A stretch of 64,000 nt of DNA from Haplodiscus bocki (Eukaryota). Below, piece after piece: positions 7,567 through 37,669 of the stretch. Position 1 is the stretch's first letter. Every line of letters starts with the position of its first letter. The stretch is from the NCBI GenBank assembly GCA_965655095.1, contig OZ296651.1:53754001-53818000 (forward strand). The letters are read 5' to 3'. Position numbers and translations under genes: made by a program. The notes under the pieces are model-generated. The model was not told the DNA's origin, made no database searches, and saw only the letters and a program-made list of their open reading frames with translations.

Positions 7567-7577
7567 AAGTCGTCATT

Positions 7578-8275: not shown

Positions 8276-9616
8276 ATGAATAGTGAAAAGATGGCTATCT
8301 TAGAATGTATTGTATTTCTCTTGATACTAAATGTTTCTATATGTGACAAATACGAACCCAAACTTGACGACATTGCACCTTCTGTTCAAGTATCCCACTA
8401 TGATTGCGGCGAGATGACGGAAAACAACCTCTATTCACTGAACGAAGTTAAACCTTGCAATATGGCACCTCAGAATATTCAGATGAACGATGTGAAACTT
8501 ACTATGTATACCAAACACTTCCGAACTGAGATCAATGCTACAATTTGCCGAATCAAGCACCAGAGAAACAAATTTGATTGCGGGATGCATGATCAGACTA
8601 TTATGGACATTGAACAACCTCAGATAACAAGCGATATAGACCTGACCCCTGAACAATGCAAACAAGCCTCCAAGGGACGATCACTTACTCTATTTGACCG
8701 CAAACTGACTTTTGAATAGGGCAAGAAAGAAATTCATCATAAAATTATTGCAGATAAAGATGATGACAACCGTAACGAATGTGATGGTTACGAATGGATA
8801 ACCAGAGATACTTTTGAAAGTCATATACAAGATATCACTCTGAAAGTAAGAATTAAAGATGGCAAGATATTCAACAGAAATGACCAACTACTACCTTGTG
8901 ATTTGGACGAACTTGGATGCGAAAGCACCTCACTGGACCCATATGCTTATACGTGGAAAGCCCCCGAAAATTGTATCTTATCAGTACTAAAAGAAGACTA
9001 TGCACATATGCTAAAGAATGATAACCACTACTACATAGTCAGTCAGAACACTTCAAAAAACAAATATCTCTTTGAGGTAAAGAATCACCCTCAACATCTT
9101 TGCAACAAACCAACCGCAGTCTACCCAACTACATACGACTCAATGTATGTTGCTATCCACTATGGTGGATTTGATATGAAAACTGGACCAAAACTCAACG
9201 AACTTGGACCCCACCTTTTACAATATCAGAAAAACGCCTTCCTATCGAAACCTGGAAACCTCTACGTCTATAGCCCTCAACCCAAACCAGCGGATCCATA
9301 TTTTAATACATGGTTAAATATGGACTACGAACTACAACAAGGTACAAAGCTTGACTACCTTTTCTTTGAGAGTTCCAGAGCACTACAGGCATCCGAACTA
9401 AATCTACTAAAGAACCAATGTGAACAGGAAAGAATCCAAATTTTTACTATCTTGATGCTATCTCTTGAAAACCCCAGACTCGCTGGATACATGCTTACTG
9501 GAAACAGATCAATGTTCTTGGAGACAGATGGAAGCCTAGCCTGGCTCTACTCCTGCCCTCAACATTATGAGCCAAGAAGGTTACCCCTTCTCCGACCTAG
9601 ATTTTCTTCTATCTAA
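8276..9616 (+). pseudogene. env: env-like viral glycoprotein (chuvirus-G / class III fusogen-like), premature stop and C-terminally truncated
   Basis: Signal peptide MAILECIVFLLILNVSIC; Cys pattern HYDC...KPC...TICR, CESTSLDPYAYTW, HLCNKP..YPT, KLDYL, QCEQER, WLYSC; sequons NAT, NTS, NRS. ORFs 8270-8719 and 8903-9616 are one frame split by TAG 8717-8719. No TM anchor left. Family assignment is by eye. Confidence 0.7.
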
Positions 9617-10025
9617 AGACAACTTCAAAGAGGACGACCTTTTGCAGCTCCCAGAACTACTACCTGAAGAATCAATAACCCCTTCTAACCATACCTCCAT
9701 CACTCACGAACTCGAGGATCTCTCCCTTACACCCACTGACGAACCCACCATTGCCCTAAACATTAGACCCAGGAAACGAAAATCAACTACCCCCTCACGA
9801 CAATTGTTTCATAAACAGAAGAAAAGCGAAGAAGCTACTTCCAAATATACTGCTACCCAAAACCCTCAGTTCCAATTTAATCTGACCTACAAAATTAAAG
9901 AAAATATAAATCAGTGGAGAATAGTATTTTGGGACTCCAAACGACAAGAGTTCACCCTAGAAAACCCATCACTAAACTACCAACGATTATCTGTACCCCT
10001 TAGATCGATTTCAGCATTCTGCTAA
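9567..10025 (+). CDS. Accessory ORF, 152 aa, acidic/Pro-rich N-terminus with basic NLS-like RPRKRKS
   Basis: Open ORF whose stop lies immediately before the TRAF-like ORF; no recognised domain. Confidence 0.55.
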   Translation: MSQEGYPFSDLDFLLSKDNFKEDDLLQLPELLPEESITPSNHTSITHELEDLSLTPTDEPTIALNIRPRKRKSTTPSRQLFHKQKKSEEATSKYTATQNPQFQFNLTYKIKENINQWRIVFWDSKRQEFTLENPSLNYQRLSVPLRSISAFC

Positions 10026-10026
10026 C

Positions 10027-10785
10027 ATGTCACAACCTTCACTAAAAGAGAAATTTGAAGACGAACAACTTCTCAGCACCGCCCTTGCTACGGAACTAGA
10101 AGATGTTAAAAAGACCTTAGCCCAACTCAAACTAGACAAAAGTAAGCCTACACACAAAGGACCGTTCAGCTTAAAACCTGATTACTATATCAATTACTCT
10201 ATTAGAAGGATCTTCGAAGAACTGGATAAACTTGAATCTCGACTAGAGAAACTAGAATCAGGAGAACAACCCCATGATTGGAATCTGTATAAAATTATTT
10301 GGAAGTTAGAAAACTTTTCAGTCGTATTCAACAACGCCAAACAATTTGAAGAGATAGAGAACAAAAACATTGCTGATCCAAACCTAGCACGCGGTTTCTG
10401 CAGCACAGCCTTTCTCAGTAAACCTTATGGCTACAGCTTCCTTATCCGCGCCTTCCCTTATGGATGTGGTCCAGCACTTGGCAAATCAATGTCCATCAAC
10501 ATATCTCTCATAGCCGGACCCTTCGATGATATCCTCCCTTGGCCGTTTAAAGGAACTATCCAAATCAGTGTCTTCAGACAAGACAACTCTGGTTTAATCT
10601 GGACCAACCTTCTAAAACCGAGTGATAAAACTACCCCCTGTTTTGTACGACCATCACCTCTACAACCCAACCCGAGTTGTGGTATTTTCTTCTACCTTCC
10701 CCACGAAGAAATGTGCAAGACGCAGAAGAACCTAATCAAGAATGACAACCTCTATATTCAAATAAAGACTCTTGACTTCCTGTGA
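10027..10785 (+). CDS. TRAF-like protein: coiled coil + MATH (TRAF-C) domain, no RING or zinc fingers
   Basis: Heptads (LATELEDVKKTLAQL, FEELDKLESRLEKLE) followed by TRAF MATH motifs IIWKLENFS, STAFLSKPYGYSFLIRAFPYGCG, MSINISLIAGPFDDILPWPFKGTIQISVFRQD, IKNDNLYIQI. ATG at 10027, intact. Confidence 0.9.
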   Translation: MSQPSLKEKFEDEQLLSTALATELEDVKKTLAQLKLDKSKPTHKGPFSLKPDYYINYSIRRIFEELDKLESRLEKLESGEQPHDWNLYKIIWKLENFSVVFNNAKQFEEIENKNIADPNLARGFCSTAFLSKPYGYSFLIRAFPYGCGPALGKSMSINISLIAGPFDDILPWPFKGTIQISVFRQDNSGLIWTNLLKPSDKTTPCFVRPSPLQPNPSCGIFFYLPHEEMCKTQKNLIKNDNLYIQIKTLDFL

Positions 10786-11214: not shown

Positions 11215-11540
11215 CGGACTAAATTCGCCTTTGAGAGACGCATCTTTCCAGCTCAGATCAGATGTCCAACGATCCGTGAAGTCACTCCACCCATTTTCCA
11301 ACATCAGCAGTTTGAGTCCAGTGCAGTATTCTTTGAGCGGTTATGTTTTCACTTTTGCTTTTATTTCTAACTTTTTCTTTGGGTAATACTTTCTTTATAA
11401 TATAACTTTAACTTTCTCTTGATGTAAACTGAACATTTAAGAAACCAAGCTTAACTCTTAACTTATAGAAACAGTAACATTTTTTATGTTTAGCTTAAAT
11501 TTATTCAACTTAACTTTAACTTAAGGCTTGACTGAGCTTA

Positions 11541-11945
11541 ATCTAAAATATAAAATTGTGTATGTGTTAAATCTTCTGTGAGGTGGTCTCGTCAAGAACG
11601 GACTCATCCAGCCTTGGTCACGTACCGGCTTGATATTTGGAAAATACTCAAATCCTCTTTGAGGTAGTCTCGCATGTCGGACTGATTTAGCCTTGGTCAA
11701 GTACCGGCTACTAAAACATTTATTATCTTAAAAATTAACTTTATTTAACTTTAACTTTAATCTAAAATATAAAATTGTGTATGTGTTAAATCCTCTGTGA
11801 GGTGGTCTTGTCAAGAACGGACTCATTCAGCCTTGGTCCCGTACCGGCTTGATATTTGGAAAATACTCAAATCCTCTTTGAGGTAGTCTCGCAAGTCGGA
11901 CTCATTCAACCTTGGTCACGTACCGGTTGCTAAAATACTTATTAT
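11541..11945 (+). repeat. 219-bp tandem duplication holding four copies of a ~51-nt double-hairpin unit
   Basis: Units TGAGGTRGTCTYG...CGGACTSAT...RCCTTGGTC..GTACCGGYT start at 11579, 11660, 11798, 11879. Confidence 0.85.
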
Positions 11946-14441
11946 CACTAAACCTAATACGTTTTCGTACTTTAATATCTTTCTTAAGGTTAATCGATGA
12001 TCCTCTTAGATGTCGTTGTATTCATTATATTTATAATACTTTTCCGCCTTTTTATCTTGCCTTTATGATTTGTACTCTGATTTATTTTGTTAGTCTTGAT
12101 ATCTTAATACTGTTAACCTTTCTGATATTTTGTCTTCCTGAATTTATAGATAATTGTAAGTCACCAGTTGATACTATTTCTGAAAATAATTTATCTGTTG
12201 ATAATAACAAGGTTTCTTCACAATATTCACCAGATAGAAAAAGTCCTTCCTTTCGAACTCACGCCTGAGACGACCTTTGTTGAAGTGCAGGAAGGCAACT
12301 GTCGCAAAATTGAATTAGGAGACTTATCCTGAGTTTCGGGATAGTTTCTGACTTGGAATAGAGTGGCTTTTGAGACTTTCCACTGCTATTTCATCAACCC
12401 ATCACTACACACACAACAGCACTTCACACCAGCAGTCTGTATAATGAGATACAGCTCAATCTCAGTATGAAAGCTGGCTAAAGTCCTCAACTGGGGGTGA
12501 TTACTGAATCCTTTCTTTAGTTCAGTACTCCGCTAAAGGTGAGTCTAAAAACAACATCTTGAAATACGTGAGAGCAACCGAAGTCATTTGGCCATCTTGA
12601 GTACTTCTTCACATCTTGAGCACGTGTGTAGGGATTTCAACTCGGCCAATTAACGTGCCATTTTTTAATTTCAGAATTTTTGCAAGCCTCTGATTTCGAG
12701 TCAACCTTCAAGAGTAAATTCATGAATTTTCTTTCGCACTCACAAGATAGAAAAAGCTTGACAGAAAAACCCCATGATGCACCCAGATCAACAGAAATTC
12801 CCAAGTAGACTCCTGGAAAGTTCTCTATTCCTGGAAGCTGCCTCTCCTTCAGATATCGGTATTTGCACTGCAGGTCTATTAGGTGACTCTTTCCGCTCCT
12901 ACTCAGCTGTGGAGAAGTTCACCGACAGTGAAAACGACAATTGGGAAAAATGCCTGGGCGCTCTTGCAAAACGATACAAGAGGGTCTGGAGAATGAGAAC
13001 GATCACTCATTCAAAAGATTTTCATCGCTATTGAGCAGCGCGAGTCCACGATAGATGAGGCGCTCAGGCAAAATTTGCGCAAAAAATTCAACCTTTCCAT
13101 CGATATCACTCCGACAGACAGAGCAGCGTGGCTGAGCAAGAAATTTTCCAGTCCCGAGTTCGATAAAACGTGAAGACTCATCTGTGGAACAATACACTGC
13201 TTAGGATGACAAATGTTAACTGTTATCACTTAAAGTGGAGTTACTACAGTGTACGCTTATTATGCTACCTCAGGGAGACGCCGAGGTAAGTGAAATAAAC
13301 GAAAATATATATACTTCTGACGTACAAAGAGTGGTCTCAGCAGTGGTTAGGGGAGAAAAAGTTTTCACTTTAGGAGCAAAAACGGATTTAGACACGTGCA
13401 TCAACGACTTGAGAGATTCGAGTCGAGTTAATGGCAGCAAACGGGCAGGAATGAACTTTGTTCGCGTTAAGAGCTCACTAACCCTGTTGCAAGGATTTTT
13501 TGAGAGTGATCCTCTCGTCAGCCTTCCGCGTGGGCAGATCAACAAACAACATGCGGCAAATGTCAAGAGTCGTAGGACCTGATGTTGCCAGAACTAACTT
13601 TGAAAACTCTCAGGTCCTCCAGGAAAAGATTGGTACGGATCAAGTACTTGTCAGTGCCCTTGGGAAAGCTCGAGTGGTGACTCCTGTGGCTAGTATCAAA
13701 GTCGACTTCTGCGAAGTATCCCTTGTTGACCAACCGTACAGTCACTCTGGGTTGAGGAATATTGAAAATGCAACTTGCTCAGTGAGTGAGTCCACGTCAA
13801 TTACCGATGAGCTCAAACCTCCTGAAGAACCTACAACGTGTAATCCTGTATCTGACAGTTCATTTCAAAAATCCAATTCGCTGTGTCGAAGCTGGTCCAG
13901 GGACCCTACTTGTGCCATGAGAAGTTGGAGGTAAATAAGCGTGAAGATTTTTGCAGAATAAATTTTCGTCCCCTTAAAGTGTGTTTTCATGGGTTTGACG
14001 GGATAATCTGACACTTCACCATGAAAATTTAAAATCTCAAAAATCTATGGTACTGCCAACAGCTTTAAATAAACAGGGTACCTAATGGGAAGAGAAAACC
14101 AATGAGTACTAGTCAAATAGGCCGAGAGAGGCCTGTGTTCATGTCTGTTGTACTTATGGAACTAGAGAGCGTGAAGAGACGGCTCAGGAGCAAGTCAGTG
14201 TACGGGGAATCGACTGAAATTACTTCCCACCTTCCAAAATTCTGACCCAACCAAAGTTTCGAAGTCTGCGTCTTCCTCTACATGAGTTTGTCAGTGACCT
14301 GAGTGACTTTTCGCAGATTTTCAGCGAACTGACACAGCGTGCGGCCGCAACTGATGACTTTATTTGGGGCAAAGAGTGTTATTGTGTTATATTATTCCCT
14401 GCATAAGGATCAATCTGTCGCTCAAGCGTATGAGCCGCTAA

Positions 14442-14732: not shown

Positions 14733-16480
14733 TGTCGCAGCACACCTGCGAGGCATGCGGCCAACCCCTTCCTTAGAACAAAGACATCCCAACGGTTCAA
14801 TGAAGAACTTAAAACTATAAACATTACTAATTAGACTCATAATTAATCATTTGTTAGACCATTTCTTAATCATTGTGCATATATACGGACACGTATGAAA
14901 TACGTATCCATAACAAATGCACAGAAAATATCAACTGATCCAAACTAGGACGGAACCGTTACGGAGCAAAATAAGTATTCACAGAGCAATTGTTTCCTTA
15001 AAGGTGCTATTTTTATATTAATTTACTTAATTATCTATTTATTTAGATATCAATATAGATCCACCTTTCTGGTACAATTGCAGTAATTAGTAGTAATAAA
15101 TGCAGTGATTGACTTTTAGAAGTGCTTGTAACAAAGCGGCTTACTCGTAACAAATTGACTCTCGGAGTGAATATTTGTTCCGTACGTGTTCCGTCGTCAC
15201 TAGTTTGGTGACGTCATCAATATTATTTCAACTATGCCGTGCTGCAGTGCTATGGTGAATACGGAGTGACTCCGTATTCACTCCTAATTCGATCACGGCC
15301 GACTAAATTAACTCGTACTACTAGTGGCTACGGAGCGCCTCCGGAGGCCACTAGTAGCAGACTGAATTTTAACTTGTACTACTAGTGGCTACGGAGCTGC
15401 TCCGGAGACCACTAGTAGCTACTAGGCGGAACGAGGAGTAAATTGGTAATTATACTAGTTTCTCCTCATCTCCAAAATACTGAAAGCTTAATTAGATGAT
15501 GGTAATATGAACATGAAGGTGATGATTAAATGTATTTTTATGATGAAATCATGCATTTTGTATTTTATTTTATTTTCTTCATTTTTAGTTTTGTAATTTT
15601 ATTTTACTCTCCTAAGCAAGGAAATTCTTTGAACTTTCCATCTATGGAGTATACAATAAACAACTTGTCGGCGCGGGAATAAACACTTTGATGGCCATCT
15701 CTGACGGATTAGGACCGTCAATTTTCTGTCGAAAGATGGAAAAGGCGCGTCCTATGATGAAAGAGATGGATGGAAAAGTTGTTTATTTCCCGCCTGGGTC
15801 GGCATTTTTAACTTTGATGTGCTGTAGTTGAAAGTATTTTTCCCTATTTGTACTTTGACTTGGCGGGTAAACAATTATGTTTCCCGCCAGGAAAAAGTAT
15901 AAATAGGAGAAATGAAAATACAAGAGACAATTTCTTATTTTTATGATACTGATGATAATAACCCAGTACTCTTAAATTTCCTTCATAACTTTGCCTGTTA
16001 CTGTTAGAACCAAGTTGATTTTCTCAATCCTCAACACAAATAATAAAGTATTACTGACTGATAAAAACTTCTCCTTTAAAATGACAACTCGAAATAAGAG
16101 AAAGTTAGCAGCGTTGAACAAAGAAAAGTGTGAAGAGCACCCTAGGAGCAACTTGGCACAAAACTCAAGCGCTCCTAGATCGCAAGAAGAATACATTACT
16201 CAAGTTTCTGAGGAAATTGAGGGAAGGGTTACAAAAAGACTGTCAAAGGAGTTTAGCAGAACGGAAAACCGCATTCTAGGTGCACTGGCGCGACTTGATG
16301 ACTTTCTGATGAACCCATTGCTACCGGGGTACTCCGGAGCCACTCCGGAGCCCACCCGCAGCGTACTGAGAAATAACCAGGGAACGAATGAGGACGACTC
16401 CCAGAATGATCCTCATCCTGAAGCGGGTCTCTTCCACAGCCAGTCGGCACGAAACGCTGGCCCAGGAGACGACCGCGACA
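14733..16480 (+). repeat. 5' LTR of element B (1748 bp)
   Basis: Direct repeat of 26172-27860; has an extra 61-bp tandem unit within 15301-15420. Confidence 0.97.
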
Positions 16481-16497
16481 TGGTGACAGGAAAATAG
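16081..16497 (+). pseudogene. LTR-encoded ORF start (probable Gag N-terminus) cut off by internal deletion; second copy at 27461-27860
   Basis: MTTRNKRKLAAL... begins inside the LTR and reads across the LTR end and PBS; conserved at protein level in the older LTR copies (14442-14732, 36078-36346). Confidence 0.6.
16481..16490 (+). other. Primer-binding site remnant (TGGTGACAGG)
   Basis: TGG immediately after the LTR terminal CA; priming tRNA not identified. Confidence 0.65.
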
Positions 16498-19400
16498 AGT
16501 CACCAACACCACAGAATCACCCTATACAATCAATAAGAACACACAAATTGCCGATTTCTCCGTAGTCACTCCGGAGCAATCCAAGTTTATCAAACCGGTA
16601 GACATGGCAATCCTGAGCATGATTCCTGAAGGTGACCCAGATTTGATCACATATCTGACTGAACTGCTCAGAACAAACAAATCAGATCAGCAATCCAACA
16701 CCTTTTGGTTTCCGACACCCGAAAATCCTGGCAATACAGACGAGCACACCCCAATTCAGAAACGAATCTTAAAAGAATTGTGTGAATTACAACAAAAGGA
16801 AAAACTGAATCCGAAAGATGACAATGAATCAAGAACTGAATTTTTAAAGCGCTTCGATTGGATAGACACACTGCTTAATGAAAGTGAGAAACACGCAGTT
16901 GAAGACATTCTAGTTGAATACCATGACATATTCGCTAGACACAGAATGGACATTGGGATGAACACGGAATTTAAGGTGAGACTCACACCCAAGGATGACA
17001 AAGCTGTTTACAGCCAAAGCTTACCAATGCCGATCCACCTGAAAGAAGATTTGATTGTTGAACTCGCTCTCATGCATAAATACGGGATCATCACAGTGTT
17101 ACCTTTCTCAAAATACGCAAGTCCCATATTTGCACAGAGGAAACCGAATGGAAAATTGCGTCCTCTTGTGGACCTTAGGAAAATCAACACCCTGACTGCA
17201 GATGATTATACTAACAACAATCACCCAGTCAGCACTTTGTCAGATGCAGCACAACACCTGGCAGGAAAATCCCTATTCTGCAAGCTTGATTGCTCCCAAG
17301 CTTACCACTGTTTGCAGATGGCGGACCAACGGTCAGTAGAGATGCTTGCATTCAATTTTTCTAGCAGAACTTTTGCCTACAAAAGACTTGCACAAGGTCT
17401 CAGCAGATCTGTGTCTGCTTTTTCAAGTTTCATGCGCGAGTACTTGGACCCAGTTGTCAAAGCTGACCAATGTGCTCAATACGTGGACGATATTGGAATT
17501 GCAGCCAACAATGCTACGGATCTTAACCGGAACATTCGGGCAGTCTTCTAGTGCATTCGCAACGCAGGATTAAAACTGACAATTGAAAAGTGCCACTTTG
17601 GAGTCAGGCAAGTTGAATTTCTTGGAAGAACCATTTCATCCGAAGGAGTATCACCACAAGCTCACAAAATTCAAAATTTTCTTGCTAAACTTCGATTCCC
17701 CAAATCAAAAAAGGCATTACAGCGCTATCTGGGTTTCGTAAACTATTACAGAAATTATATTCCCAGAATGGCTGAAAAACTGCATCCGTTCCACAAATTG
17801 CTCAAAACGGAAGTGCCAATCAATATTACGTCACAGTTGAAAGAAACATTTGATTCAGTCAATACAGCTCTCAGTAACGCATGTGAATTAGCACTGAAAC
17901 AACCCATTCCAGGAAAGCAACTTGTCTTAATGACAGATGCCAGCTTCAGAAGTGCCGGATATGCCCTTATGATTGAGGACAATCCCGATCAGAAAATACA
18001 GTCAAAGCGGAAGACGTATGCCCCCGTGGCATTCGGCTCAAAAATTTTTTCCCCTGCACAACTGAAGATGTCGATTTATTCAAAAGAATTTTTAGCAATT
18101 TACATGGCATTCCTCGAATTTGCACACATCTTGTGGGAAGCAACGAAACCAACGATCGTTTTGACTGACAACAAATCCGTCACACGATTTTTCCAGACCA
18201 AAGCAATTCCACCATCTTTGTGGAACGCATGTGATTATGTGATCCAGTTCAATTTCAAAACAGCCCATATCGCCGGTTCAATAAACACAGCAGCCGACTT
18301 CCTTTCACGATTAGAGTTAAAAGTCACAGAAAGAATCTGTCTCAAAATCAGGGAAGATGTGCAAACAACACCAATTGAAGTCACAACATCCTCTTCAGAT
18401 GTTGCAGACGAAGAACAGGTTTTCTTCACGCACACAGACGATCAAAATGAAACTGAAGAGCAGATCTTACAAAGGAAAGAACAATCTCGGCAAAAAGCAG
18501 TAGAATGGGTAGCCAACCAGGAACAATCCTCATTGAAGCCAAGTATAAAAGCATTCACAAAGATCGACGGAAATACTACGGCGTATTCCCTTCATGGAAT
18601 TAAATCAAATGCGAGAATACGAGTCGAGCAAGACGCCGATCTAGTATTGAAGAACTTGAAACTTAAAATACTTGGCCAGCCACACGATGACGTCTTATTG
18701 ACAGCAGATAGACGATTTAAACACTACAAAGCCAATGAGGATCGCATTATCCTCAAAGATGGACTTTTACTCCGGAAATACTACGGAGACACTGGTAGTG
18801 TCAAATACTACCAAATTCTTATACCGAAGCAGCTAGTTAACGAAGTGCTCCGGAGCCTCCACGGAGACTTTGGAAAACACCCCGGAATTACTAAAATGAT
18901 AATTGCCTACAGAGAAAAGTATTATTACCCGAAAATGGCTCAAATGATCAGGGAGTGGGTCATGTCTTGTGAGAAATGCATTCGAGAATTACGGATTAAC
19001 CCGCAATTAAACCGCCCCCCTCTGCAAAACCCAAATGAGCACATTACTGCGCCCGAAGACGCCATGCAAATTGACTTAGTACCGGGATTACCACCATCTG
19101 GCGGCTATGAGAATATTGTGACAGCCATGGATGTATTTTCCCGCTATTTATTTGCATACCCGACAGCAACTCAAGATGCCACCACAATTGCTAAAGTGAT
19201 AATTAACATCATGACTAAGCACGCCTACTTACCAACGACGCTCATCTCAGATAAAGGTACAACCTTTACGTCACATGTAATTAAAGAAGTGGCCGGCGTC
19301 CTTGGTATTACTCTAAAGCACGCCACCACCAAGCACGCTCAAACAATTGGGCTACTTGAGCGATCTCACATGTCAATCAAGCAGTCATTAAAGATTGAGA

Positions 19401-20311
19401 CAGGCGAGCGTAGATCATTGTGGCATAAATACATCAGCATTGCGGTCCTTAATTACAACACCTCTTATCATTCAAGCATTGGCTGTGAGCCAAGCAGAGT
19501 GTTTCACGGCCGCATCACCTACAATGTCCTTGATCTAAAAATGGGTATTCGTCCACAGAAAATTTCCCCGCCAGATTCGGAAATTGCACAAGATGTCCTT
19601 GAGCAAACAGAAGCCATTTTCCAGGACGTCAGAAGAAATTCTATGCAAGCTTATATCAAATACAAAGCGTATTATGATAAAAAAGCCAACGCCTCAAAAC
19701 TCAAACAGTCAGATTATGTGTACATTTTACAGCCAAAAGCCGATCATCAGGGAAGTAAAATTCCCTTTACAGACTTTCGGTGGATCGGCCCATATATTAT
19801 TGAGAAAGTATTACCCAACAATAATTATGTGGTACGCAAAATTGGCACCAACAAGACACAAATCCTGCACAGAATGAGGCTGCCTCAATTCACACCCCGT
19901 CAGCCAATACCCGACATATCAGTCACACCACGCGAATGGCAACCAGACCCGGAAGTCACCATTAAACATGATGATTTATACGCCAGAGCATGGGAGTGTG
20001 AATACGACAAGCCAATATTCGACAGCGACCGCGATAATCTGGTATCACCCAATTTACCTGAAATCACAGTCCGATCGGGGGAAGCTGAAGATGAAGTGAG
20101 GAGCACTCCAGGAGTTACACAAAAAGACTCCTCAAATATTCTCCCCCACGCAGATGAAATAGACGACGGAGCAGATACGGATCACTACATGCAGCCTGAT
20201 GCGGACAATAGCGTAGAGCGAATTGACCCTACGCCCACCAACCCCCGCAGCTCAAAATATAATCTACGCCACAACCCAAGGCCAAATTGTAATGACGACT
20301 ACAGATATTAA
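16496..20311 (+). pseudogene. pol: pol remnant (RT, RNase H, integrase); protease absent; one in-frame stop
   Basis: LVDLRKIN, LDCSQAYH, YVDD, MTDAS, SKEFLA, LTDNKS, HGDFGKHPG...CEKC, QIDLV, SDKG, GLLER, WIGPY; TAG at 17549-17551 splits a single frame. Confidence 0.95.
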
Positions 20312-20661
20312 ATCGTCAGTCTGCCTGGGTATGTATCCGGAACAGCTACGGACACAAAATGTGGATTTTGGGAATGTGCTACGGAGCGCATCCGGAGCCA
20401 GTACACGTTCCCCTATAGAACTCCGAATAAGTATGTCTCCGGAGTGCCTCCGGAGACATCCCTGAAATTTCCTGAAATTCCCAAAAACAATGGCGACGGA
20501 TACAATACGGAGTACACACAAGCTATTCCGAATGATTTGAGGATACAACGTGGCAACGTACTCAAAGACTACTCAACTCTGTAAAGTGACAGCGGGCTAT
20601 AGACAGTTAACTACGTACTCTAAATACTAAATATAATTTAAAATTCAAATGATATGTCAAG

Positions 20662-23600
20662 TTATCGGGGACTAGACTGGAAGACTGGTGCAGCACGACG
20701 ACTACGACCACTCCGGCGAGATGCAGCAGTTTTTTCTTGACTCTGGAACGCGCATTCAAAATTAGGGTCTTCGAAATATACCCCCCTCCCCTTTGGCAGA
20801 ACAACCGACTCGTCATCAAACTCAAACAGTCGCTTGGGCCCAACAGCGGGAGCAGGTGTCACACTTCTCTTCCGCTTTCCTTTCCCGGGGCCTCGAGGAG
20901 ACACTGTAGTGCTGCTATAAGGCTGATCCCGAGCAAGTACCGACCCAGACAAGTATTCAACCTGTCCAACTTCAACAACATTGGAGATTCTCACTCCAGC
21001 CCGACCAGATGACTCCCCAACTTCAGAAGACTCGACACTGCGCACTCCGAACCATCTCTCTGATGTATCGCGTGCCTCCTTCCGCCTAACCACCACAACA
21101 TCATATGCCTTCCTGAGATCAACCAAAGTAGCCTCATACCCACCAGGAAGAACATTCGCCCAAGGCTCGCAAGTGGATTGGTCACGCATCGAACCAGCAG
21201 CATTGACGGCAGAAACGAGCAAATTCACCCCATTGTCGCTGAAGAAATCGCGCTGGGTAAACCTAGGCGACCGCACAAAATCCTGAATGCACGCAATTGA
21301 CTTCTCCACAAGCCGGCGACTCAAACCAATTCCAGTCAACTTGACAGTGAATGCGGGAAAGTCCTCAACAGAGTCCCGAAGAAACAAGGTCGTCAATTGG
21401 TACACCTGCAATAAATACTGACAATTAGTGCTTACAATGAAGGCTACCTTGGAGCTGGTGCAACTACTTACTCTGAACAGATGTCTGCGACTCTGGAATC
21501 CAGTCTGTTGAGAGAAGTAGGCCAGGATGTTCCTTACATCAGGATGCTTCCTCGTGGAATGACGTTCCAACTGGCGCTGCTCCCGGACAAACGACTGAAA
21601 CTCAGCTTTGCAAGCCTCAATGTGGGAACCCTTCTCCCAACCACACTCCACAAGCCCATCCAGCAGCTGTCCGAACAAGAAAAAGGCGGAATGGTCATCG
21701 CCTCCAAGAATGATTTCAGGGCAGAAACAGCTGACTCCCTGTCCCAGTTTTGATCTGGCAGCCACGGTTGACAAAATGGTGCTGCAAAATTCGTCCAGGA
21801 AACGACGGGCACTGGTCCGGAACTCCTTCCGCAAGTAGGAGCTCGACATCTTCTCTAAAGCTGCATGGATGCGGGTCCCCACGAGAAAATGCTCATCAGC
21901 AATGGCAGCGAATGAAGAGTGGTTCGGCAGCATGTAATCTTCCCATTTCTCCACCAAGGGAAGCGACTCGCTCGTCTTGATCTTCTGTAGGATGCAATAC
22001 ACAAAGTGGGACAGTTCGCCATACGCCCGATACCCGTACCCACTGCCAGGAGTCTGTTCTGCGCTGAAGTTGTTGTTGTCTGAAACAGAAGAATGCCACT
22101 GAGTACCAGCCTGAAATGAGGAGGCTACTAGGAGCACTCCAAGTTGGATCCTAGAATTCTCTCACCAGCCTGAAATGAGGAGGCCACTAAAAGCACTCCA
22201 AGTTGAGTCCTAGAAATCCCGGACGGACCCAAAACGAGAATCCCGCTGGGAGTCCTACAGATGGACTCCTAGAAAGCCCTACCTCTGCAAAAAGAATATG
22301 AGGATCCCACTGGGAGTCCTACAGGTGGACTCCCAGAAATCCCGAAATATATGAAAATGAGGAGGCCACTAGGAGCACTCCAAGTTGACTCCTAGAATTC
22401 CAACAGTCCAAAATCGCGTGGGAATGGCAGTTACTACACCATGGTGACATGTTGGTGGAAATACTAACACATTTCGAGGATAAGATGGAACAGACGAAAC
22501 TTCATTCTGCCCAATTGGTCGACATAAAAGTATCCATCTATCCCTTTTTTCTAAACAAGGAAATAGAAATGACTATGGGCGCTAGATGGCAAAGAAACGC
22601 AAAAGGAAGAACCATACCAGAAGGCTATCTCCGCTGTCTTTCTTTCCAGTCTCTTTGAGATACGAGACGATCAGCGGCCACACACCAATGATGTTGCTCA
22701 CAACGTCAAGAAGACCGGGAAGAGAAAGATCGCCCGTCTCAATGGCCTGACGAAGGGACTGCCTTGACTGCATCCAGTCTCGATGCTCCGCCCCCTTCAG
22801 CCTCACCACAATGAACTCTGTCATTGAAAAGGGGTCCAATGTCCCGAACACAACTGATGCCGTCTTTTGCAGGCGTCGCTTCAGCAACCTTGCATCGAAA
22901 ACCGGGTAATCTATAAGGGTCTTCGTGTACCCACTGCCGAGGTACTCCTTGTAGCACTCTACTAATGTGTGGGAGCGGCCCGAAAGAGAAACAAGTGATG
23001 CCCCGCTGCCCACAGCGCTCAGGATCTTGCCCAGAATCGCCAACTCACTGCTCGAATCGCCATAATAGCGGTCAATTATGGCTACCGCTACCCGCACAAA
23101 CTCCCCAGCCTTCCACGTCCTAATGAAAACCCAAGTTGCAGAGCCGTGAGTCGCAAACTCCGCACCAAACTGCCGAGATGCCCTGACCCAGTCAACAACA
23201 CGTGTCAAAATCCTCGGCAACATTCCGTTCAGTAAAATTGACTAAAACAGAAACCGAGAAACCCTGAATTAAATGCAATTAGTCCATATGCAATCCGGAG
23301 GCACTACGGAACTAACCAAAACCTCATCGCGGGACCAGGCAACAGTCACATTGATCTGGCTGGCCGTCAACACAAAGCGCTCCCACAGTTTTTCTACTAG
23401 CTCGTAGCTCCCACCCAACTGCAGAGCACCGATCAGGCACGAGACTTTGGCCAACAATGGCAGCTGCGCATCCAAGTTTCCGGAGGCATCCGGAATCAAA
23501 TCCTCTCGAAAAGGATATTCACGATCCCGGACTACTAGTGGCGCAAGCATAATTCTTTCCCGCTGTCTTTCAAGCTCGTCTTCAGGGAGCGGGTTCCCGT

Positions 23601-25161
23601 CAAAATCCAACACCCGCCAACCGGGTGTCTCGAGGCGAAGTCGCTGATCGCGAGAAAAATGGCGGTGTCCCTGAAAATGTCGGATGATTTCGTACTCCCC
23701 GTGAGTACGAACAGAAACATCCTTCCTGCACACCCTGCAATAAAACTCGCTCAGCTTATTTGCAGCATCAGTGGGCCCGGTGACGAAAAACTGAGCCAAC
23801 TCCCCAACAGCGTATCCCTTCTTCATTTTGAAGGTGCGTCTGGAGCGCACCCGCCGACGAGGTTGTTCCATATCAGTGTCCTCTCCACTGGTATCTGTCG
23901 TTTCACTCACACGATGTTGTTGCTGCTGCGGCATGGACGGCCCCTGACTGAGTTTGCCCAACACCTCATCGAGCTCTGCAAACAAAAACCAATCATGAAA
24001 CCACAGAATTACGGAGTCATACGGAACAGTTCCGGAGCACTAACTGGTCATCAACGGACCCAGGAGCTGATTCTTCTCCTCCTCAACTACTGAACGGCAG
24101 AGAGACACCAGCTGATGCCCTGTCGCTCGAATCACTGATGATGAAGGATCTCCAGAGTACTGATCTAAAACAGGAAAATATGAACTGCAAACATGGAGCC
24201 AACGAGGAGTCATACGAGAAGGCTACTTATTTGAAACAAAGGTATACCCTCATCAAACGCCTTCTCCAACAGTTGACGACTCCGATTCTGGCTTGAGTCG
24301 GCCACAGGAAGACAATGCTGGGGCCCCCCAGCGAGCGGTACTAGCTGCCTAGTAACAACTGCCCGTCTCCTGCGCACCACACTCTCGCTCTCCACGCCAG
24401 TGGACACCTCTCCGGCTCCATCTCCTCCTGTCTCTTCTTCAGTGCCTATAATGCAAAAGGCAATCATAAATATACGCTGGCTACACTACCATGATAATTA
24501 AGCGAGAGCAATACTAACTCTCAGCAACAGCCGCCAACGGAGCTCTCCGGGAAGCTCTCCGGGGAAAGTCCTCTCCAGAAGTTGCTCCTCCAACTTCAAA
24601 TTCGCTGCCCGAAGCAGAACACTCTCCACTGCCACGAACGGAATGCTTGGCAGGCTCTCCCGCAGAATCATACACTAAAACACAGCCCGATGGTGAAGTC
24701 AACTTCTCCTGATTCAATGCGCGCATGACAACTAACTTAACGGATCGAACAACTGGCCAGTGTGATATCCCAATAAAAAGTTAATGGATTTCCGAGAAGC
24801 TTGAAAACTAACAAATCGGTAGCCCAGCAGTATCAAGAGCATTGTCCGTCTCTGAAATCAGGCCAGCCCTCCCGACTGCTTCCTCAAACGTGACTCCCTC
24901 CGACTCACAGACAATCGACAGAGGTCCGCCCACAGAGATGATCTCCGACTCATCATCAGCCTCCGTGCCCTCGTCATCCACTCCTCTCCTCGCCTCTTCA
25001 CTCACAACAGCCTCATGCACAATGGGGAGATCAGGGGGGAACTGACCAAAAAGGGACACACTGACATCCGGAGTTGCTCCGGAACTCTCCAACTGACGAC
25101 AACTTTCGTCCCTCACAACCACTCGACTCTTCTTCTTCTTTTGTTGTCTCTCATCAGGCAT
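20662..25161 (-). CDS. Predicted 9-exon antisense gene, 1205 aa, BED-like C2H2 zinc finger, possibly hAT-transposase-derived
   Basis: Exons 25161-24813, 24752-24519, 24445-24248, 24164-24045, 23975-23317, 23241-22618, 22550-22469, 22079-21472, 21405-20662 sum to 3618 nt in one open frame. All introns GT-AG (60, 73, 83, 69, 75, 67, 389, 66 bp), five with GTTAGT donors. Finger FYCRVCRKDVSVRTHGEYEIIRHFQGHRH. Confidence 0.8.
22108..22400. repeat. Five related ~50-60-bp hairpin repeats inside the 389-bp intron
   Basis: gaaatgaggaggccactaggagcactccaagttg..tcctagaa-type x3; ctgggagtcctacaggtggactcccag-type x2 (10-bp perfect stem at 22310-22336). Confidence 0.75.
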
Positions 25162-25538
25162 GATGAACGACGTGGCTTGCTTTCAACTATTACATGGTGG
25201 ATTTATAATTTTATTCATTAATTATCATGATTATTTAATTTGACCGATTTGTCTGCCAGCAATGACGTCAGCAAATATTTCAAGGAGACATTGAGGAGTG
25301 AAACTCAAAATTTTCTCATTGCTAAACCTCATCTTCATTTTGTTTACCAATCATCAACTTCAGTTACACCGCCAATTCAGTGACTCTAACACTTCTACTG
25401 AAACCGCGGGAACTTCAAAGTACTTCCCGCTTAACGGCGCGTGCCGCCTCACGTTTCAGTAAGATCATCACTTTTCAAGTCACTTTGTCAATAAGCAGCA
25501 GCTCTAAAATAATTTAAACTTCATTAAATTTCATTACA

Positions 25539-26215
25539 ATGTATCGCAATCTTTCTTCCAACTCGTCAACAGACTCCGACGTTTTCTACGTAGAGCAATC
25601 TTCGCCAGAAAGGAGCCCCATCAGACACAATACTCCGGCTATCTTGAACTCGACGCAGCTATCGGGAGCAATCGACCCGGAGATGATCACGATTTCCTCC
25701 GTCGCCTCTCCGGAGCCACAAATAGTCACCATTGACTCTGACTCGAATGAGCCGACTCTCCCATATGCCTTCGGAGCCCAATACCCGATAGTGCCGCCAA
25801 GTTTAAACGATCTTAATTTGCCGGCCAATCCCTTTAACATGCTGACATCTATGGCCGTTGTACAGCAGGATCAACAAGACAGCCCCTATCGCCCGAGCCG
25901 TCTGATCCGTCACCAATTTCAACTCCGCCGATGAACATTAGCACAATAAGTGGATTGGAGACGCCGCACACTACAACGGACGAAAATACCTTTCATTCGT
26001 CTGATAACGATCCAAGACGGGTATACTGGGATGCTTCTCTTAATGAAACTTTCGAGTAAGGTGAACCCCGAAGAGTCTACCCCATTCCAAGCCCTCAATC
26101 CACACCGCCGCCTCCTCCGCGAAGAAAGAGAAGACTGAGTATGGGGATGTCTTTTCCCAAAGAGGGGGGAGTGTCGCAGCACACCTGCGAGGCATGCGGC
26201 CAACCTCTTCCTTAG
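25539..26215 (+). pseudogene. Disrupted Ser/Pro/acidic accessory ORF with SIM-like motifs, running across the PPT into the 3' LTR
   Basis: MYRNLSS...VFYVE...MITISS...IVTIDSDS. After a 1-nt frameshift near 25886 it continues SPEPSDPSPISTPP..., has TAA at 26057-26059, then PPPRRKRR...SQHTCEACGQPLP-stop at 26215. Confidence 0.6.
26159..26171 (+). other. Polypurine tract of element B
   Basis: AAAGAGGGGGGAG directly before the 3' LTR TG. Confidence 0.9.
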
Positions 26216-27860
26216 AACAAAGACATCCCAACGGTTCAATGAAGAACTTAAAACTATAAACAATACTAATTAGACTCTTAATTAATCAATTGTTAGACCA
26301 TTTCTTAATCATTGTGCATATATACGGACACGTATGAAATACGTATCCATAACAAATGCACAGAAAATATCAACTGATCCAAACTAGGACGGAACCGTTA
26401 CGGAGCAAAATAAGTATTCACAGAGCAATTGTTTCCTTAAAGGTGCTATTTTTATATTAATTTACTTAATTATCTATTTATTTAGATATCAATATAGATC
26501 CACCTTTCTGGTACAATTGCAGTAATTAGTAGTAATAAATGCAGTGATTGACTTTTAGAAGTGCTTGTAACAAAGCGGCTTACTCGTAACAAATTGACTC
26601 TCGGAGTGAATATTTGTTCCGTACGTGTTCCGTCGTCACTAGTTTGGTGACGTCATCAATATTATTTCAACTATGCCGTGCTGCAGTGCTATGGTGAATA
26701 CGGAGTGACTCCGTATTCACTCCTAATTCGATCACGGCCGACTAAATTAACTCGTACTACTAGTGGCTACGGAGCTGCTCCGGAGACCACTAGTAGCTAC
26801 TAGGCGGAACGAGGAGTAAATTGGTAATTATACTAGTTTCTCCTCATCTCCAAAATACTGAAAGCTTAATTAGATGATGGTAATATGAACATGAAGGTGA
26901 TGATTAAATGTATTTTTATGATGAAATCATGCATTTTGTATTTTATTTTATTTTCTTCATTTTTAGTTTTGTAATTTTATTTTACTCTCCTAAGCAAGGA
27001 AATTCTTTGAACTTTCCATCTATGGAGTATACAATAAACAACTTGTCGGCGCGGGAATAAACACTTTGATGGCCATCTCTGACGGATTAGGACCGTCAAT
27101 TTTCTGTCGAAAGATGGAAAAGGCGCGTCCTATGATGAAAGAGATGGATGGAAAAGTTGTTTATTTCCCGCCTGGGTCGGCATTTTTAACTTTGATGTGC
27201 TGTAGTTGAAAGTATTTTTCCCTATTTGTACTTTGACTTGGCGGGTAAACAATTATGTTTCCCGCCAGGAAAAAGTATAAATAGGAGAAATGAAAATACA
27301 AGAGACAATTTCTTATTTTTATGATACTGATGATAATAACCCAGTACTCTTAAATTTCCTTCATAACTTTGCCTGTTACTGTTAGAACCAAGTTGATTTT
27401 CTCAATCCTCAACACAAATAATAAAGTATTACTGACTGATAAAAAAACTTCTCCTTTAAAATGACAACTCGAAATAAGAGAAAGTTAGCAGCGTTGAACA
27501 AAGAAAAGTGTGAAGAGCACCCTAGGAGCAACTTGGCACAAAACTCAAGCGCTCCTAGATCGCAAGAAGAATACATTACTCAAGTTTCTGAGGAAATTGA
27601 GGGAAGGGTTACAAAAAGACTGTCAAAGGAGTTTAGCAGAACGGAAAACCGCATTCTAGGTGCACTGGCGCGACTTGATGACTTTCTGATGAACCCATTG
27701 CTACCGGGGTACTCCGGAGCCACTCCGGAGCCCACCCGCAGCGTACTGAGAAATAACCAGGGAACGAATGAGGACGACTCCCAGAATGATCCTCATCCTG
27801 AAGCGGGTCTCTTCCACAGCCAGTCGGCACGAAACGCTGGCCCAGAAGACGACCGCGACA
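26172..27860 (+). repeat. 3' LTR of element B (1689 bp)
   Basis: Direct repeat of 14733-16480; length difference explained by a 61-bp unit loss and +2 A. Confidence 0.97.
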
Positions 27861-29245
27861 CTAGTCTTCTTGTGATCTGGGAACATTCGACTTTTGTTCC
27901 AAATTGCTCCTAGGGTGTTCCTCGCAATTTTCCTCGTTTAACGCTGCCAAATTCTTCTTGTTTCTTGGAATTGCCATTTTCTACGGAAAAGTGACCGTCG
28001 GTGATTTTTAATTGATTGTCTTTTACTGAAGAGAAATCAAATTGTTTTTTTACAGTTTTTAATAATGGAATTAACAAAACCGGTTAATATCGTCAATACT
28101 ACCGAAAGATAACACAATTCTAATAAGCTGTACTTTCCTTTCTCCTAATAATACCTTTTCCTTGGCGGGAAACAACTGTTTACACGCCAAGTTAAGGTAC
28201 AAATAGCGAGAATATACTTTACAAATTACTACATCAGAGTCAAAATGCCGACTCTGGCGGGAAACATACAACCTTTCCATCCATCTCTTCCGTCATAAGA
28301 CGCGCCTTTTCTCTTTTCTATCTTTCGACAGAAAATAGACGGACCTAATCCGTCACAGATGGACATCAAAGCGCTCTTTCTCGCGCCGACATATTGTTTA
28401 CAGTGTTGAAACATTGTATAATCCATACATGGAAAATACTAAAATTTCCCTAATTAGGAATATAAAATAAAATAACCAAAATGGAAAAATGCAATTAAAA
28501 AAATACAGAATGCATGACTTTAGTACAAAAATACAATTAATCATCGTCTTTATGCTCATTTCATCATCACTTAATCTTTGCGTCTTCTACTCTTTTAGAA
28601 ATGAGGAGAAATTAGTAGCACTACTAGCTTACTCCTCATTCGTACGAGTAGCGACTGGTGGTTTCCGAATAGTTCTGTATTCACTAGTAGCGGTAGTAGT
28701 CTGTGCTCAAGTGAGGATTGAATCCGGAATCACTTCGTATTCACCAGAACACTGCAGCACGTTATAGTAAGGGTAGTAATGGTGACTTCACCAGACTAGT
28801 AGCCACGGAACACGTACGAACAAATATTCACTCCGAGAGTCAATTCACTTAAAATCAGTTACTGTGCTTATAGCATCAATTTAACCACAAGTTTTAATTA
28901 AACTGCACTTTTTGCAATCATTCAAAGTGTCAGATTTTATTGAAAAAGGTGGATTTATATTTAATAATAAAATATTTATCTTAGGATAAAATTTGCACCT
29001 TTTCGGTTAATAGTGCTCTTTGAATACTTATTTGTTCCGTAACGGTTCCATGCTAGTCCGGATAAGTTTGGTTCCGTATAAAGACGTACCAATATGTAGG
29101 TACATTGTTATGGGGACGTATTAGTTACGTATCCGTATAAATGCACAATAACTAAAAATAGTCTAAGAGTACACAGTTAAGAGTTTGATTAGTAGTGTTA
29201 GTGTTTGCGCTTTTCCTGAGCTCCTGAGCATTACGGTGTCTTTCT
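27861..29245 (-). mobile_element. Older inverted LTR related to element B, 5' part
   Basis: Reverse complement is collinear with the element B LTR (e.g. TCTGTGACGGATTAGGTCCGTC, ACTCTCGGAGTGAATATTTGTTC); continues 14442-14732 across the TSD; outer end eroded. Confidence 0.9.
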
Positions 29246-36077: not shown

Positions 36078-37669
36078 TCCTGGAACAGCTACGGAACAAG
36101 TCCGAACCTTTGGGTTCAGAATAAATTCATCGAGTTTAGTCAAGGCATTCAAAATGCGCGACTCCGTCCGGCTAAATTCCTGGAACTTTTTCTAGTGACC
36201 CACCCTTCAATTTCGTCAGAAACCTGGGTGATGTACTCGTCAGCCATCCCCGGATTACGTGTGTTTTGTGACTGATTGTTCCTTGTATTTTCTGGTATTT
36301 CTCTCAAAACTGCCGCTAACTTTTTCTTATTCCTCAATGTTGCCATGATTCTGAGGGAAAAGCTTCGTCAGTTGTGAAGACTGAATTGATTTTTATTTCA
36401 TAACAAAAACTGTCGATCTCCTCTATGATGAGGGAAAAGGTCTCAATAAAAGCGAACAGTTAACAATGTAGAATTTTAGTATATTACCGCAAAGACTACA
36501 AGTTATCTAATATTAATAGTACTTTCGTTTCTTCTATTTATACTTTTTTCTTGGCGGGAAACATAAAATTTTACACGCCAATTCAAGGTACAAATAGGGA
36601 AAAGTACTTTAATTATATTATCTAAAAAGGAGAAATGCCGACTCTGGCGGAAAAAAAACACCTCTCCGTCTGCTTCTTCTTTCACAGACCTCGTCCTTTC
36701 CATCTTTCGACAGAAAAATGTACGGGTCTAATCCGTCAGAAATGCACATCAAATTGGTTATTCCCGCGCGGACACCACAAATAATAACATAAACAAAAGA
36801 TCAAAATGATTTTCTGTAAGAAGAAATTACTAAAAATTGCACCAAATACAAATAGAATACATAAAATAAACTACATAAAAAAGATGGACAAGGTTCATGT
36901 TTACATGTGTTTACATATTGCATCGATTGAATCCACTGCTGTGAACAAAACTAGGCTTTTTCCTAGTCCGTTTCACATTTCTACCAGCTCGCGCCTCAGT
37001 TTGGCCGAAGTGCTCCGGAACGACCACGTAGCCGTTTGTAGCACTGCTCTCCGCAGTGCTACTGAGAAGAACGAAATGGGTGGCTACGTAACCTTCCGTG
37101 TTCGTCCAAATTGACACAGCGTAGTAGCACAGCGGATAGGCCTGAATTCTAGTGACGTCACCAGATTGGTTATGACGGAACACATACGGAACATATTTTC
37201 ACTTTTAAAGTCACGCTCTGTAATTATAGCTATAATAGATATTGCAAACTTGTTGACATTGTCAATATTGATTTTATTTACTGCGCAAGTCAATTCAAAA
37301 AGGTGGATTTTTATAAAAAATAGCTAAATTAGATATAAAAATAGCATCTATTGTTGATATAAAGATACAGTAGGGAAAGCAAATGAATATCCGTTTGCTC
37401 CGTAGCTGCTCCGTCCCAATCTGGATCAGTATACCAGAATTGTACGTATGGGATTCCTCATTTTTACATGAATTGCTTAATATGGAACAATACGTAACCA
37501 CCACGTATCGTTTACATGATATAAAATGTAATGAATGGTATTATGAGTTTATCAGCATGTATATGTAAAGTTTGAGTGTTTGTAGAAATTCAGTCTTTAG
37601 TAGACGGGCCTGGAATTTACTTTGCCCGGGGAATGATTTTTCTGCAGGCTTGGCAGACATTCTGCGACA
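36078..37669 (-). mobile_element. Diverged solo LTR of the element B lineage, 3'-truncated
   Basis: Starts TGTCGCAG at 37669 (minus); shares LTR blocks (TCTGACGGATTAGACCCGT, CCGCCAGAGTCGGCATTT) and the MATLRNKKKLAAV...YITQVSDEIEG ORF. Confidence 0.88.

What the first reader, a model, noticed from the sequence alone, without database searches (positions are those of the whole stretch)
14949..25083. Dispersed T(A/C)CGGA-N5-T(A/C)CGGA dimers (11-bp spacing) concentrated in non-coding parts of element B: candidate target of a VANC-like anti-silencing system
Seen: paired hexamers one helical turn apart at 14949/14960, 15329/15340, 15390/15401, 16333/16344 (LTR), 20336/20347, 20380/20391, 20438/20449, 20495/20506 (pol-cargo spacer), 23294/23305 and 24020/24031 (inside two small introns) and 25067/25078, with variable N5 spacers (two pairs have GACGGA as first half); similar pairs occur in the older LTRs (~14575, ~37176, ~37400). 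Known: Arabidopsis VANDAL transposons encode VANC proteins that bind short motifs accumulated in the element's non-coding regions and reverse silencing; hAT BED fingers bind short subterminal repeats. Inference: the antisense Zn-finger protein binds these CpG-containing dimers to mark and de-repress (or target) its own family.
Basis: partly seen in the sequence, partly recalled or inferred. Interest (0 to 1): 0.86.

Follow-up and report, generated by a model that had tools for sequence, protein, structure and literature searches.

The report
Retrotransposon family's self-recognition DNA code
A large family of jumping genes in an animal genome is studded end to end with a precisely spaced paired DNA motif that comes in two lineage-specific versions, which looks like a private address read by one of the element's own proteins, though which protein reads it is not yet shown.

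Summary
The paired motif is real and far beyond chance: 10 in the element vs 0 in 300 shuffles, and 17,244+16,916 genome-wide vs 115+146 control. It is a two-fold symmetric 17-bp site, two CpG-centred hexamers 11 bp apart, confined to one Gypsy LTR clade that carries an antisense, intron-containing zinc-finger gene (20 sites in 11.7 kb of clade DNA, 0 in 188 kb elsewhere). New finding: a sister lineage has switched to YACGTR half-sites at the same spacing, which points to a lineage-specific reader. Motif class follows the pol/LTR tree, not the finger tree, and one YACGTR family keeps a cargo swapped in from the TCCGGA lineage under purifying selection. The LTR-encoded Gag N-terminus (basic arm plus predicted coiled-coil oligomer) and host factors are live rivals. 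The genome shows little sign of CpG methylation, so VANC-style demethylation is unlikely. Binding and function are inferred, not shown.

The parts
14733..27860 (+). Ty3/Gypsy LTR retrotransposon copy ('element B'), non-autonomous: most of gag and the protease deleted, stop in RT at 17549-17551; inserted into an older LTR of the same clade
   Evidence: LTR pair 99% identical, 5-bp target duplication CTAGT; RT, RNase H and integrase Pfam hits; full-length relatives have about 2.3 kb more between LTR and RT
14733..16480 (+). 5' LTR; U3 sites at 14949, 15179, 15260, 15329, 15390; 61-bp unit repeated in tandem
16081..16480 (+). Gag N-terminal domain encoded inside the LTR: basic arm RNKRKLAA, lineage-specific residues 12-32, helical oligomer 33-77; carries site 16333
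   Evidence: dN/dS 0.02-0.09 in most pairs (gagY row); alignment; 4-copy model 0.52 vs best control 0.01
16481..16490 (+). primer-binding-site-like TGG segment directly after the LTR
   Evidence: sequence; inference from position
16487..20311 (+). pol remnant (RT, RNase H, integrase); coding sites at 16559, 18566, 18771, 20165
20312..20661 (.). spacer between the convergent 3' ends of pol and cargo; four sites (20336, 20380, 20438, 20495)
20662..25161 (-). antisense multi-exon cargo gene: acidic N-terminal exons, C-x2-C-x16-H-x5-H finger, predicted RNase H-like region without the expected acidic triad, helical C-terminal part; hAT-like by weak evidence
   Evidence: dN/dS about 0.06-0.2
23317..23975 (-). 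finger exon; E(-4) in 36 of 36 and R(-1) in 34 of 36 distinct genomic fingers
23242..23316 (-). predicted intron with site 23294
   Evidence: GT kept in 29 of 29 and AG in 28 of 29 young copies
23976..24044 (-). predicted intron with site 24020
   Evidence: GT 29 of 29, AG 29 of 29
25042..25097 (-). predicted first intron with site 25067
   Evidence: GT 29 of 29, AG 29 of 29
22080..22617 (-). predicted large intron with 59-nt repeats, no site
25539..26160 (+). conserved sense ORF ('orf3'), low-complexity, frame disrupted in this copy; carries site 25698
26159..26171 (+). polypurine tract
   Evidence: sequence
26172..27860 (+). 3' LTR; sites at 26388, 26618, 26699, 26768, 27713
27861..29200 (-). 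older LTR sequence of the same clade with sites at 28338 and 29115
36519..37510 (-). older LTR remnant with sites at 37174 and 37399

Best explanation
The dimers are binding sites on double-stranded DNA for an oligomeric protein made by the element family itself. Two CpG-centred half-sites one helical turn apart suit a dimer of dimers on one face of the helix. Two lineages have diverged to different half-sites (TCCGGA/TACGGA vs YACGTR). The most likely single reader is the antisense finger protein (about 0.35-0.4 overall), reading the constant CG core and perhaps retuned between lineages. Shown: enrichment, symmetry, clade restriction, conservation, class switch, selection on the genes.
For: Hexamers 96.9% conserved (527 of 544) vs central spacer 75.6% and other U3 79.4% across 10 relatives. 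20 sites in 11,735 bp of clade DNA, 0 in 188,265 bp of other DNA from 20 position-picked stretches that include three other Gypsy elements. Of 17 elements counted, 12 have 3-11 TMCGGA dimers and 0-1 YACGTR; 5 have 0 and 8-12. YACGTR dimers number 35,455 vs control 1,182 genome-wide. Two pol sites are kept in the TCCGGA lineage and lost in the YACGTR lineage. Cargo present in the 3 full elements picked by motif. Three cargo lineages sit on YACGTR backbones (6 of 6). E(-4) and R(-1) align, by counting from the first zinc histidine, with Hermes BED base-reading N67 and R70 (PMC10368747 passages). DREF and ZBED1 bind CG-cored palindromes (PMC7471704 passages).
Against: No binding or RNA data. Class follows pol (1 change), Gag-N and orf3 (1 each), not finger (3), middle exon (2) or C-terminal exon (2). 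0 of 844 cargo columns are diagnostic, and the 5' cargo exons were not tested. The helix HE[VI]LRH is shared by fingers of both classes. The swapped family keeps 9-12 YACGTR dimers. The convergence signal is weakened by a TCCGGA-class control branch with 6 of 25. 19 of the 23 elements were picked by their finger, so cargo linkage is partly circular. hAT ancestry was not confirmed. Little methylation to reverse.
Confidence: 0.55

Rival explanations
1. One reading: a parallel coiled-coil oligomer presents basic arms to the two half-sites, and residues 12-32 set the class. The cargo would then be an effector or unrelated. This is a sub-case of the element-encoded model with a different reader.
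For: Highest share of class-diagnostic columns: 16 of 77, vs capsid 12 of 235, RT 8 of 274, integrase core 4 of 281. dN between classes about 0.30 vs about 0.07-0.10 for capsid, with dN/dS mostly 0.02-0.09 within classes. After the LAA motif, TCCGGA-class LTRs read L/I-N-K/R-E/D-N and YACGTR-class LTRs read V-S-R-E-T, including a third divergent LTR type. Four-copy model scores 0.52 vs best control 0.01; runs share at least 50% of contacts; partner pLDDT at least 59; the mark was reached by 21 of 30 solved pairs and 0 of 23 single chains, calibrated on two copies and on microbes. It explains the swapped-cargo family without extra assumptions.
Against: It lies inside the same LTR as the sites, so co-variation follows from linkage alone. 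The protease region also has 32 of 270 diagnostic columns. No known DNA-binding fold: Atlas best 0.85, unnamed; no meaningful Pfam match. The basic arm could be just a nuclear-localisation signal, and coiled coils are common at Gag N-termini (own knowledge).
Confidence: 0.2
2. The sites bind host transcription factors. YACGTR is an E-box/G-box-type core for bHLH or bZIP dimers (own knowledge), and each lineage has adapted to a different host factor or paralogue. The element's extra genes do something else.
For: Class tracks the cis-linked backbone, not the cargo. Some sites are shared by both lineages, such as the GACGGA..TACGGA pair in U3 and a CACGTC..TCCGGA site in gag. LTRs commonly collect host factor sites (own knowledge).
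Against: 0 sites in 188 kb of non-clade DNA, though promoters were not sampled specifically. The same 11-bp spacing in both classes suggests one scaffold. Sites cluster in the 3' spacer, introns and pol, far from either promoter.
Confidence: 0.27
3. The sites act on the cDNA or RNA during replication (packaging, nuclear import, integration complex) rather than on integrated chromatin.
For: Sites occur along the whole element, and left and right halves are somewhat more complementary than independence predicts (0.62 vs 0.50 at positions 2/16).
Against: Direct identity of the halves is at least as strong (0.69 vs 0.50), only 41 of 221 distinct sites have perfectly palindromic hexamers, and inner spacer positions show no pairing (0.29 vs 0.29). 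No Rfam match. Both orientations occur in the LTR.
Confidence: 0.12
4. The dimers are by-products of local duplication or composition and have no function.
For: Some LTR and spacer sites are multiplied by short tandem units.
Against: Variable spacers with conserved hexamers, coding sites beyond synonymous shuffles, and a clean class switch between lineages.
Confidence: 0.04

Closest known systems
VANC anti-silencing proteins of Arabidopsis VANDAL (Mutator-like) transposons (PMC5735166, passages read)
   Same: Element-encoded accessory gene; short motif accumulated in introns, intergenic and terminal non-coding parts; tandem amplification; related families carry different motifs.
   Different: Here an animal LTR retrotransposon; the site is a symmetric spaced dimer, also written into coding sequence; little CpG methylation to remove; motif and candidate protein do not co-vary strictly; no binding shown.
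TnpA and transposase-derived regulators (bioRxiv 10.64898/2026.08.24.746577; abstract, one passage and one section read)
   Same: A transposase-like protein lacking catalytic residues could act as a sequence-specific activator of cognate copies.
   Different: That work concerns plant DNA transposons and host genes; whole-word search found no mention of LTR, retrotransposon, BED or animal. Here the transposase-like gene rides in an unrelated retroelement.
Retand (plant Ty3/Gypsy) antisense TRP28 ORFs (PMC11963269, passages read)
   Same: Long pol-to-3'LTR region with a conserved antisense gene bearing a transposase-type, putatively DNA-binding domain.
   Different: Plant-only domain, and no target motif appears in the passages read; here a different, intron-rich gene and a defined dispersed site.
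hAT BED-finger proteins: Hermes transposase, DREF/ZBED1 (PMC10368747 and PMC7471704, passages read)
   Same: C-x2-C..H..H finger; two fingers on a quasi-palindrome; CG-cored palindromes; ZBED1 SUMOylates Mi2-alpha to keep targets active.
   Different: Membership of the cargo is not confirmed; the finger spacing is longer; the sites lie in an LTR element, not at transposon ends or host promoters.

Membership tests
Ty3/Gypsy LTR retrotransposon | LTR pair with TG..CA ends, target duplication, PBS and PPT | tested here: met
Ty3/Gypsy LTR retrotransposon | RT, RNase H, then integrase order | tested here: met
VANC-type anti-silencing system | VANC protein family encoded by a VANDAL/Mutator-like DNA transposon | tested here: not met
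   Host element is a Gypsy LTR element; cargo has no Pfam match
VANC-type anti-silencing system | Short motif enriched in non-coding parts of cognate elements and absent elsewhere | tested here: met
VANC-type anti-silencing system | Related families carry different motifs | tested here: met
VANC-type anti-silencing system | Motif co-varies with the accessory protein | tested here: inconclusive
   Strict test fails; deep split and convergent finger changes partly agree
VANC-type anti-silencing system | Protein binds the motif | not testable with these tools
   needs EMSA, DAP-seq or ChIP
VANC-type anti-silencing system | Loss of DNA methylation and de-repression of cognate copies | tested here: inconclusive
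   Indirect only: CpG o/e 0.90, CpG transition ratio about 1.4, no DNMT or SRA hit in an exon-by-exon search
hAT transposase-derived protein | N-terminal BED-type C2H2 finger | tested here: inconclusive
   Pattern present; Atlas 0.90-0.92 to zf-C2H2_12, zf-BED and FAM200/GTF2IRD2 clusters, recognition below threshold; no Pfam hit
hAT transposase-derived protein | RNase H-like core | tested here: inconclusive
   Model shows three consecutive strands then helices, mean pLDDT 62; only non-significant RNase H-fold hits, no hAT structure listed
hAT transposase-derived protein | hAT C-terminal dimerisation domain or similarity to hAT transposases | tested here: inconclusive
   No Pfam hit; profile vs two single hAT sequences of this genome not significant
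active hAT transposase | DDE triad and terminal inverted repeats | tested here: not met
   No conserved aspartates at the positions inferred by eye from recalled hAT motifs; gene lies between LTRs in every element viewed

The most novel reading that the evidence does not exclude
An animal LTR retrotransposon clade runs its own sequence-specific self-recognition system without DNA methylation: an element-encoded oligomer, either a captured dead transposase or a Gag N-terminal domain encoded in the LTR itself, reads a spaced CpG dimer written across the whole element, and reader and sites have switched specificity together between sister lineages.
Probability: 0.45. Interest if true: 0.9.

Novelty: new variant of a known kind. 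Interest (0 to 1): 0.78.

Why it matters
Sequence-specific, element-encoded anti-silencing is established for plant DNA transposons. My five targeted searches (listings only) showed no such case for an animal retrotransposon, and one on Gag binding LTR DNA showed none either. The clade is huge (7,140 first-look candidates for the finger exon; tens of thousands of sites), so this code may help explain how it expanded. It gives a directly testable natural experiment: two site classes, several protein variants and one natural cargo swap. It also offers a small, specific DNA-binding module and a case of TE counter-defence where CpG methylation seems weak.

Tried and rejected
RNA evidence: no RNA holder listed; the four runs laid were contigs of unrecorded kind that gave no splice or expression evidence. 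Naming the cargo: Pfam blank; no longer homologues in two word-index searches; no solved-structure match; the C-terminal model was poor (pLDDT 41) and its fold search meaningless; finger-plus-middle model gave no significant fold hit. The 150 best of 1,367 HMMER hits are relatives of this family; the 10 looked up are unnamed ENA contig proteins. Two divergent ones matched this genome at only about 50-57%, so they probably come from other species, but their DNA could not be read. A donor DNA transposon with the same site was not found: one young hAT copy has CCGCGAA-type end repeats instead (2 of 150 hAT hits fetched). RNA-hairpin reading disfavoured. Integrase-tail vs finger candidate counts (10,498 vs 7,140) are not comparable enough to test for cargo-less families. 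Dropped results: the 'gagN' query and the gagN row were in the wrong frame, and the exN row too; E105 is a chimera of the two lineages and was left out; 17 of 23 elements were counted; part was cut from view; the first tree script stopped after two trees and the rest were redone with FastTree. Earlier scan notes: nothing. The host lineage was not established by any search; my acoel searches rested on a recalled resemblance and gave no methylation data.
Full report
Observation. The element holds 10 strict TMCGGA-N5-TMCGGA dimers against none in 300 dinucleotide shuffles. In the 1.5-Gb genome the pattern occurs 17,244 times forward and 16,916 reverse, against 115 and 146 for the reversed control and 1,408 and 1,441 with one extra spacer base. 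Anchoring on one half-site and a second CpG 11 bp away gave 246 distinct contexts; the second half is mostly T-M-CG-K-A, with G or C tolerated at the outer ends and a purine/pyrimidine preference next to the inner ends. The site is therefore a two-fold symmetric 17-mer of two CpG-centred hexamers, not a simple direct repeat.

Anatomy. Element B is a Gypsy LTR retrotransposon at 14733-27860 with 99% identical LTRs and a CTAGT target duplication. Gag begins inside the LTR at 16081. This copy lacks most of gag and the protease, which full-length relatives carry, and has a stop in RT. After pol comes a 350-bp spacer with four sites, then an antisense gene (25161 to 20662) with at least seven predicted introns; the six covered by the fetched copies keep GT and AG in 28-29 of 29 young copies, and three contain a site. 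A conserved sense ORF follows before the polypurine tract. Of 17 strict sites, 12 lie in 3.1 kb of non-coding and 5 in 8.4 kb of coding sequence; the coding ones exceed synonymous shuffles (5 vs 0.08). No RNA evidence was available, so the splice model is a prediction.

Distribution and selection. In 20 stretches of 10 kb picked by position, 20 sites lay in 11,735 bp of this clade and none in 188,265 bp of other DNA, which included three other Gypsy elements. The neighbouring env-bearing element has none. Across 10 relatives the U3 hexamers are 96.9% identical, the central spacer bases 75.6% and the rest of U3 79.4%. Halves do not pair as an RNA stem would require. This is the signature of a protein site on double-stranded DNA (inference).

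Two classes. De novo counts showed that some relatives use CACGTG, CACGTA and TACGTG half-sites at the same 11-bp spacing. Of 17 elements counted, 12 have 3-11 TMCGGA dimers and at most one YACGTR dimer, and 5 have none and 8-12. YACGTR dimers number 35,455 genome-wide vs 1,182 control. Two TCCGGA-class sites inside pol are lost in the other lineage, and one at the integrase tail is converted with amino-acid change. A few sites are shared, and older LTRs carry mixed halves. A dispersed, concerted switch implies a reader whose preference differs between lineages (inference).

Which reader? The cargo finger is the only recognisable DNA-binding candidate. Its exons evolve at dN/dS about 0.06-0.2. 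E(-4) and R(-1) before the first zinc histidine are kept in 36 and 34 of 36 distinct fingers, at positions where the Hermes BED domain reads bases (PMC10368747 passages). Three cargo lineages sit on YACGTR backbones (6 of 6). Against it, class needs one change on the pol, Gag-N and orf3 trees but three on the finger tree and two on each other cargo exon. The cause is one family (3 copies read) with a YACGTR backbone and a whole cargo cassette about 88% identical to a TCCGGA-class family. That cargo has diverged by dS about 0.3-0.6 and stayed under purifying selection, while the family kept 9-12 YACGTR dimers. No cargo column of 844 is diagnostic (5' exons untested). The swapped finger exon does show 6 of 13 derived changes matching the native YACGTR cargos vs 0 of 24 in the other exons (Fisher P = 0.0007), as point changes; but one TCCGGA-class branch shows 6 of 25, and only 2 of the 6 are specific to those cargos. 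So retuning is possible, not shown.

The Gag N-terminus is the alternative. It has 16 diagnostic columns of 77, strong purifying selection within classes and dN about 0.30 between them, with the differences right after a conserved basic motif. A four-copy model scored 0.52 vs best control 0.01, with a parallel interface over residues 33-77 and the arms free (runs share at least 50% of contacts, pLDDT at least 59; mark reached by 21 of 30 solved pairs and 0 of 23 single chains, calibrated on two copies). Linkage to the LTR explains co-variation equally well, and no DNA-binding fold was recognised. Host E-box-type factors remain possible, but no site was seen outside the clade.

What the cargo is. 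The Atlas places the finger exon near zf-C2H2_12, zf-BED and FAM200/GTF2IRD2-like clusters at 0.90-0.92, with recognition below its threshold. The model shows an RNase H-like run of strands. No Pfam, fold or profile test was significant. By recalled hAT motifs the catalytic acids are absent. I call it hAT-like and probably a dead transposase, not a proven member.

Mechanism. Among 29 young copies, CpG transitions ran at 4.4 per 1,000 vs 3.2 for other C/G; CpG o/e is 0.90; no DNA methylase or SRA domain was found, in an exon-by-exon search. If the system counters silencing, the target is more likely histone or piRNA-guided chromatin than 5mC (inference). ZBED1 offers a precedent for de-repression by a hAT-derived protein through SUMOylation of Mi2-alpha (PMC7471704 passage).

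Comparison and verdict. It works like VANC in motif placement, tandem amplification and lineage divergence (PMC5735166 passages), like Retand in carrying an antisense transposase-type gene (PMC11963269 passages), and fits the dead-transposase-as-regulator route (bioRxiv 10.64898/2026.08.24.746577, abstract and one section; its supplements were not seen). It is not a VANC family member. My odds: element-encoded reader with a pro-expression role 0.55 (cargo about 0.35-0.4, Gag-N about 0.2), host factor 0.27, replication-stage role 0.12, no function 0.04. New variant of a known kind; interest 0.78.

Noticed in passing
window 2534-10785 (+): A second, decayed Gypsy element with pol, an env-like gene matching a viral fusion glycoprotein family (PF24664) and a TRAF/MATH-domain ORF; a relative with the same order is in L057. 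No dimers.
   Followed up: partly
window 25539-26160 (+): orf3 is conserved under purifying selection (dN/dS about 0.03-0.16) and has several hydrophobic-plus-acidic stretches resembling SUMO-interacting motifs and a basic C-terminal patch (motif recalled, not tested). It could be the effector arm of the system.
   Followed up: partly
window 20246-20311 (+): The integrase ends in a conserved RSSKY(N/D)LRHNP motif, resembling nucleosome acidic-patch-binding motifs such as that of foamy virus Gag (recalled).
   Followed up: no
L087-L100 region set, e.g. L099-L100 cargo vs L091-L092: The whole cargo cassette was exchanged between lineages with sharp ends at the spacer and before orf3; cargo lineages are far more diverged than pol, suggesting a modular, swappable cassette.
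   Followed up: yes
L105-L106: Chimeric element: 5' half YACGTR lineage, 3' half TCCGGA lineage, crossover within pol.
   Followed up: partly
L038 4600-9700: Derivative with gag but no pol and only a short cargo remnant, yet about nine dimers in its internal region and up to seven tandem 61-bp site units in the LTR: a possible parasite of the system.
   Followed up: partly
window 45261-46330: Two copies of another repeat with a terminal hairpin, TGTT microsatellite, TCCGGA triplets at 12-13 bp and embedded tRNA-like 142-bp units; it accounts for many of the listed N6-spaced matches. Helentron/SINE-like by recall.
   Followed up: partly
L173 1-2250: Young hAT transposon family (624-aa frame, many equal-scoring copies) with dense CCGCGAA-type repeats at both ends, a different CG-cored motif.
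   Followed up: partly
window 14949 and 15179: An inverted pair of GACGGA..TACGGA sites about 210-230 bp apart in U3 is kept in both lineages, perhaps the ancestral or core sites.
   Followed up: partly
window 6376-6551, 7605-7868, 11538-11957: 16-bp, 88-bp and 219-bp tandem arrays in or near the left element.
   Followed up: no
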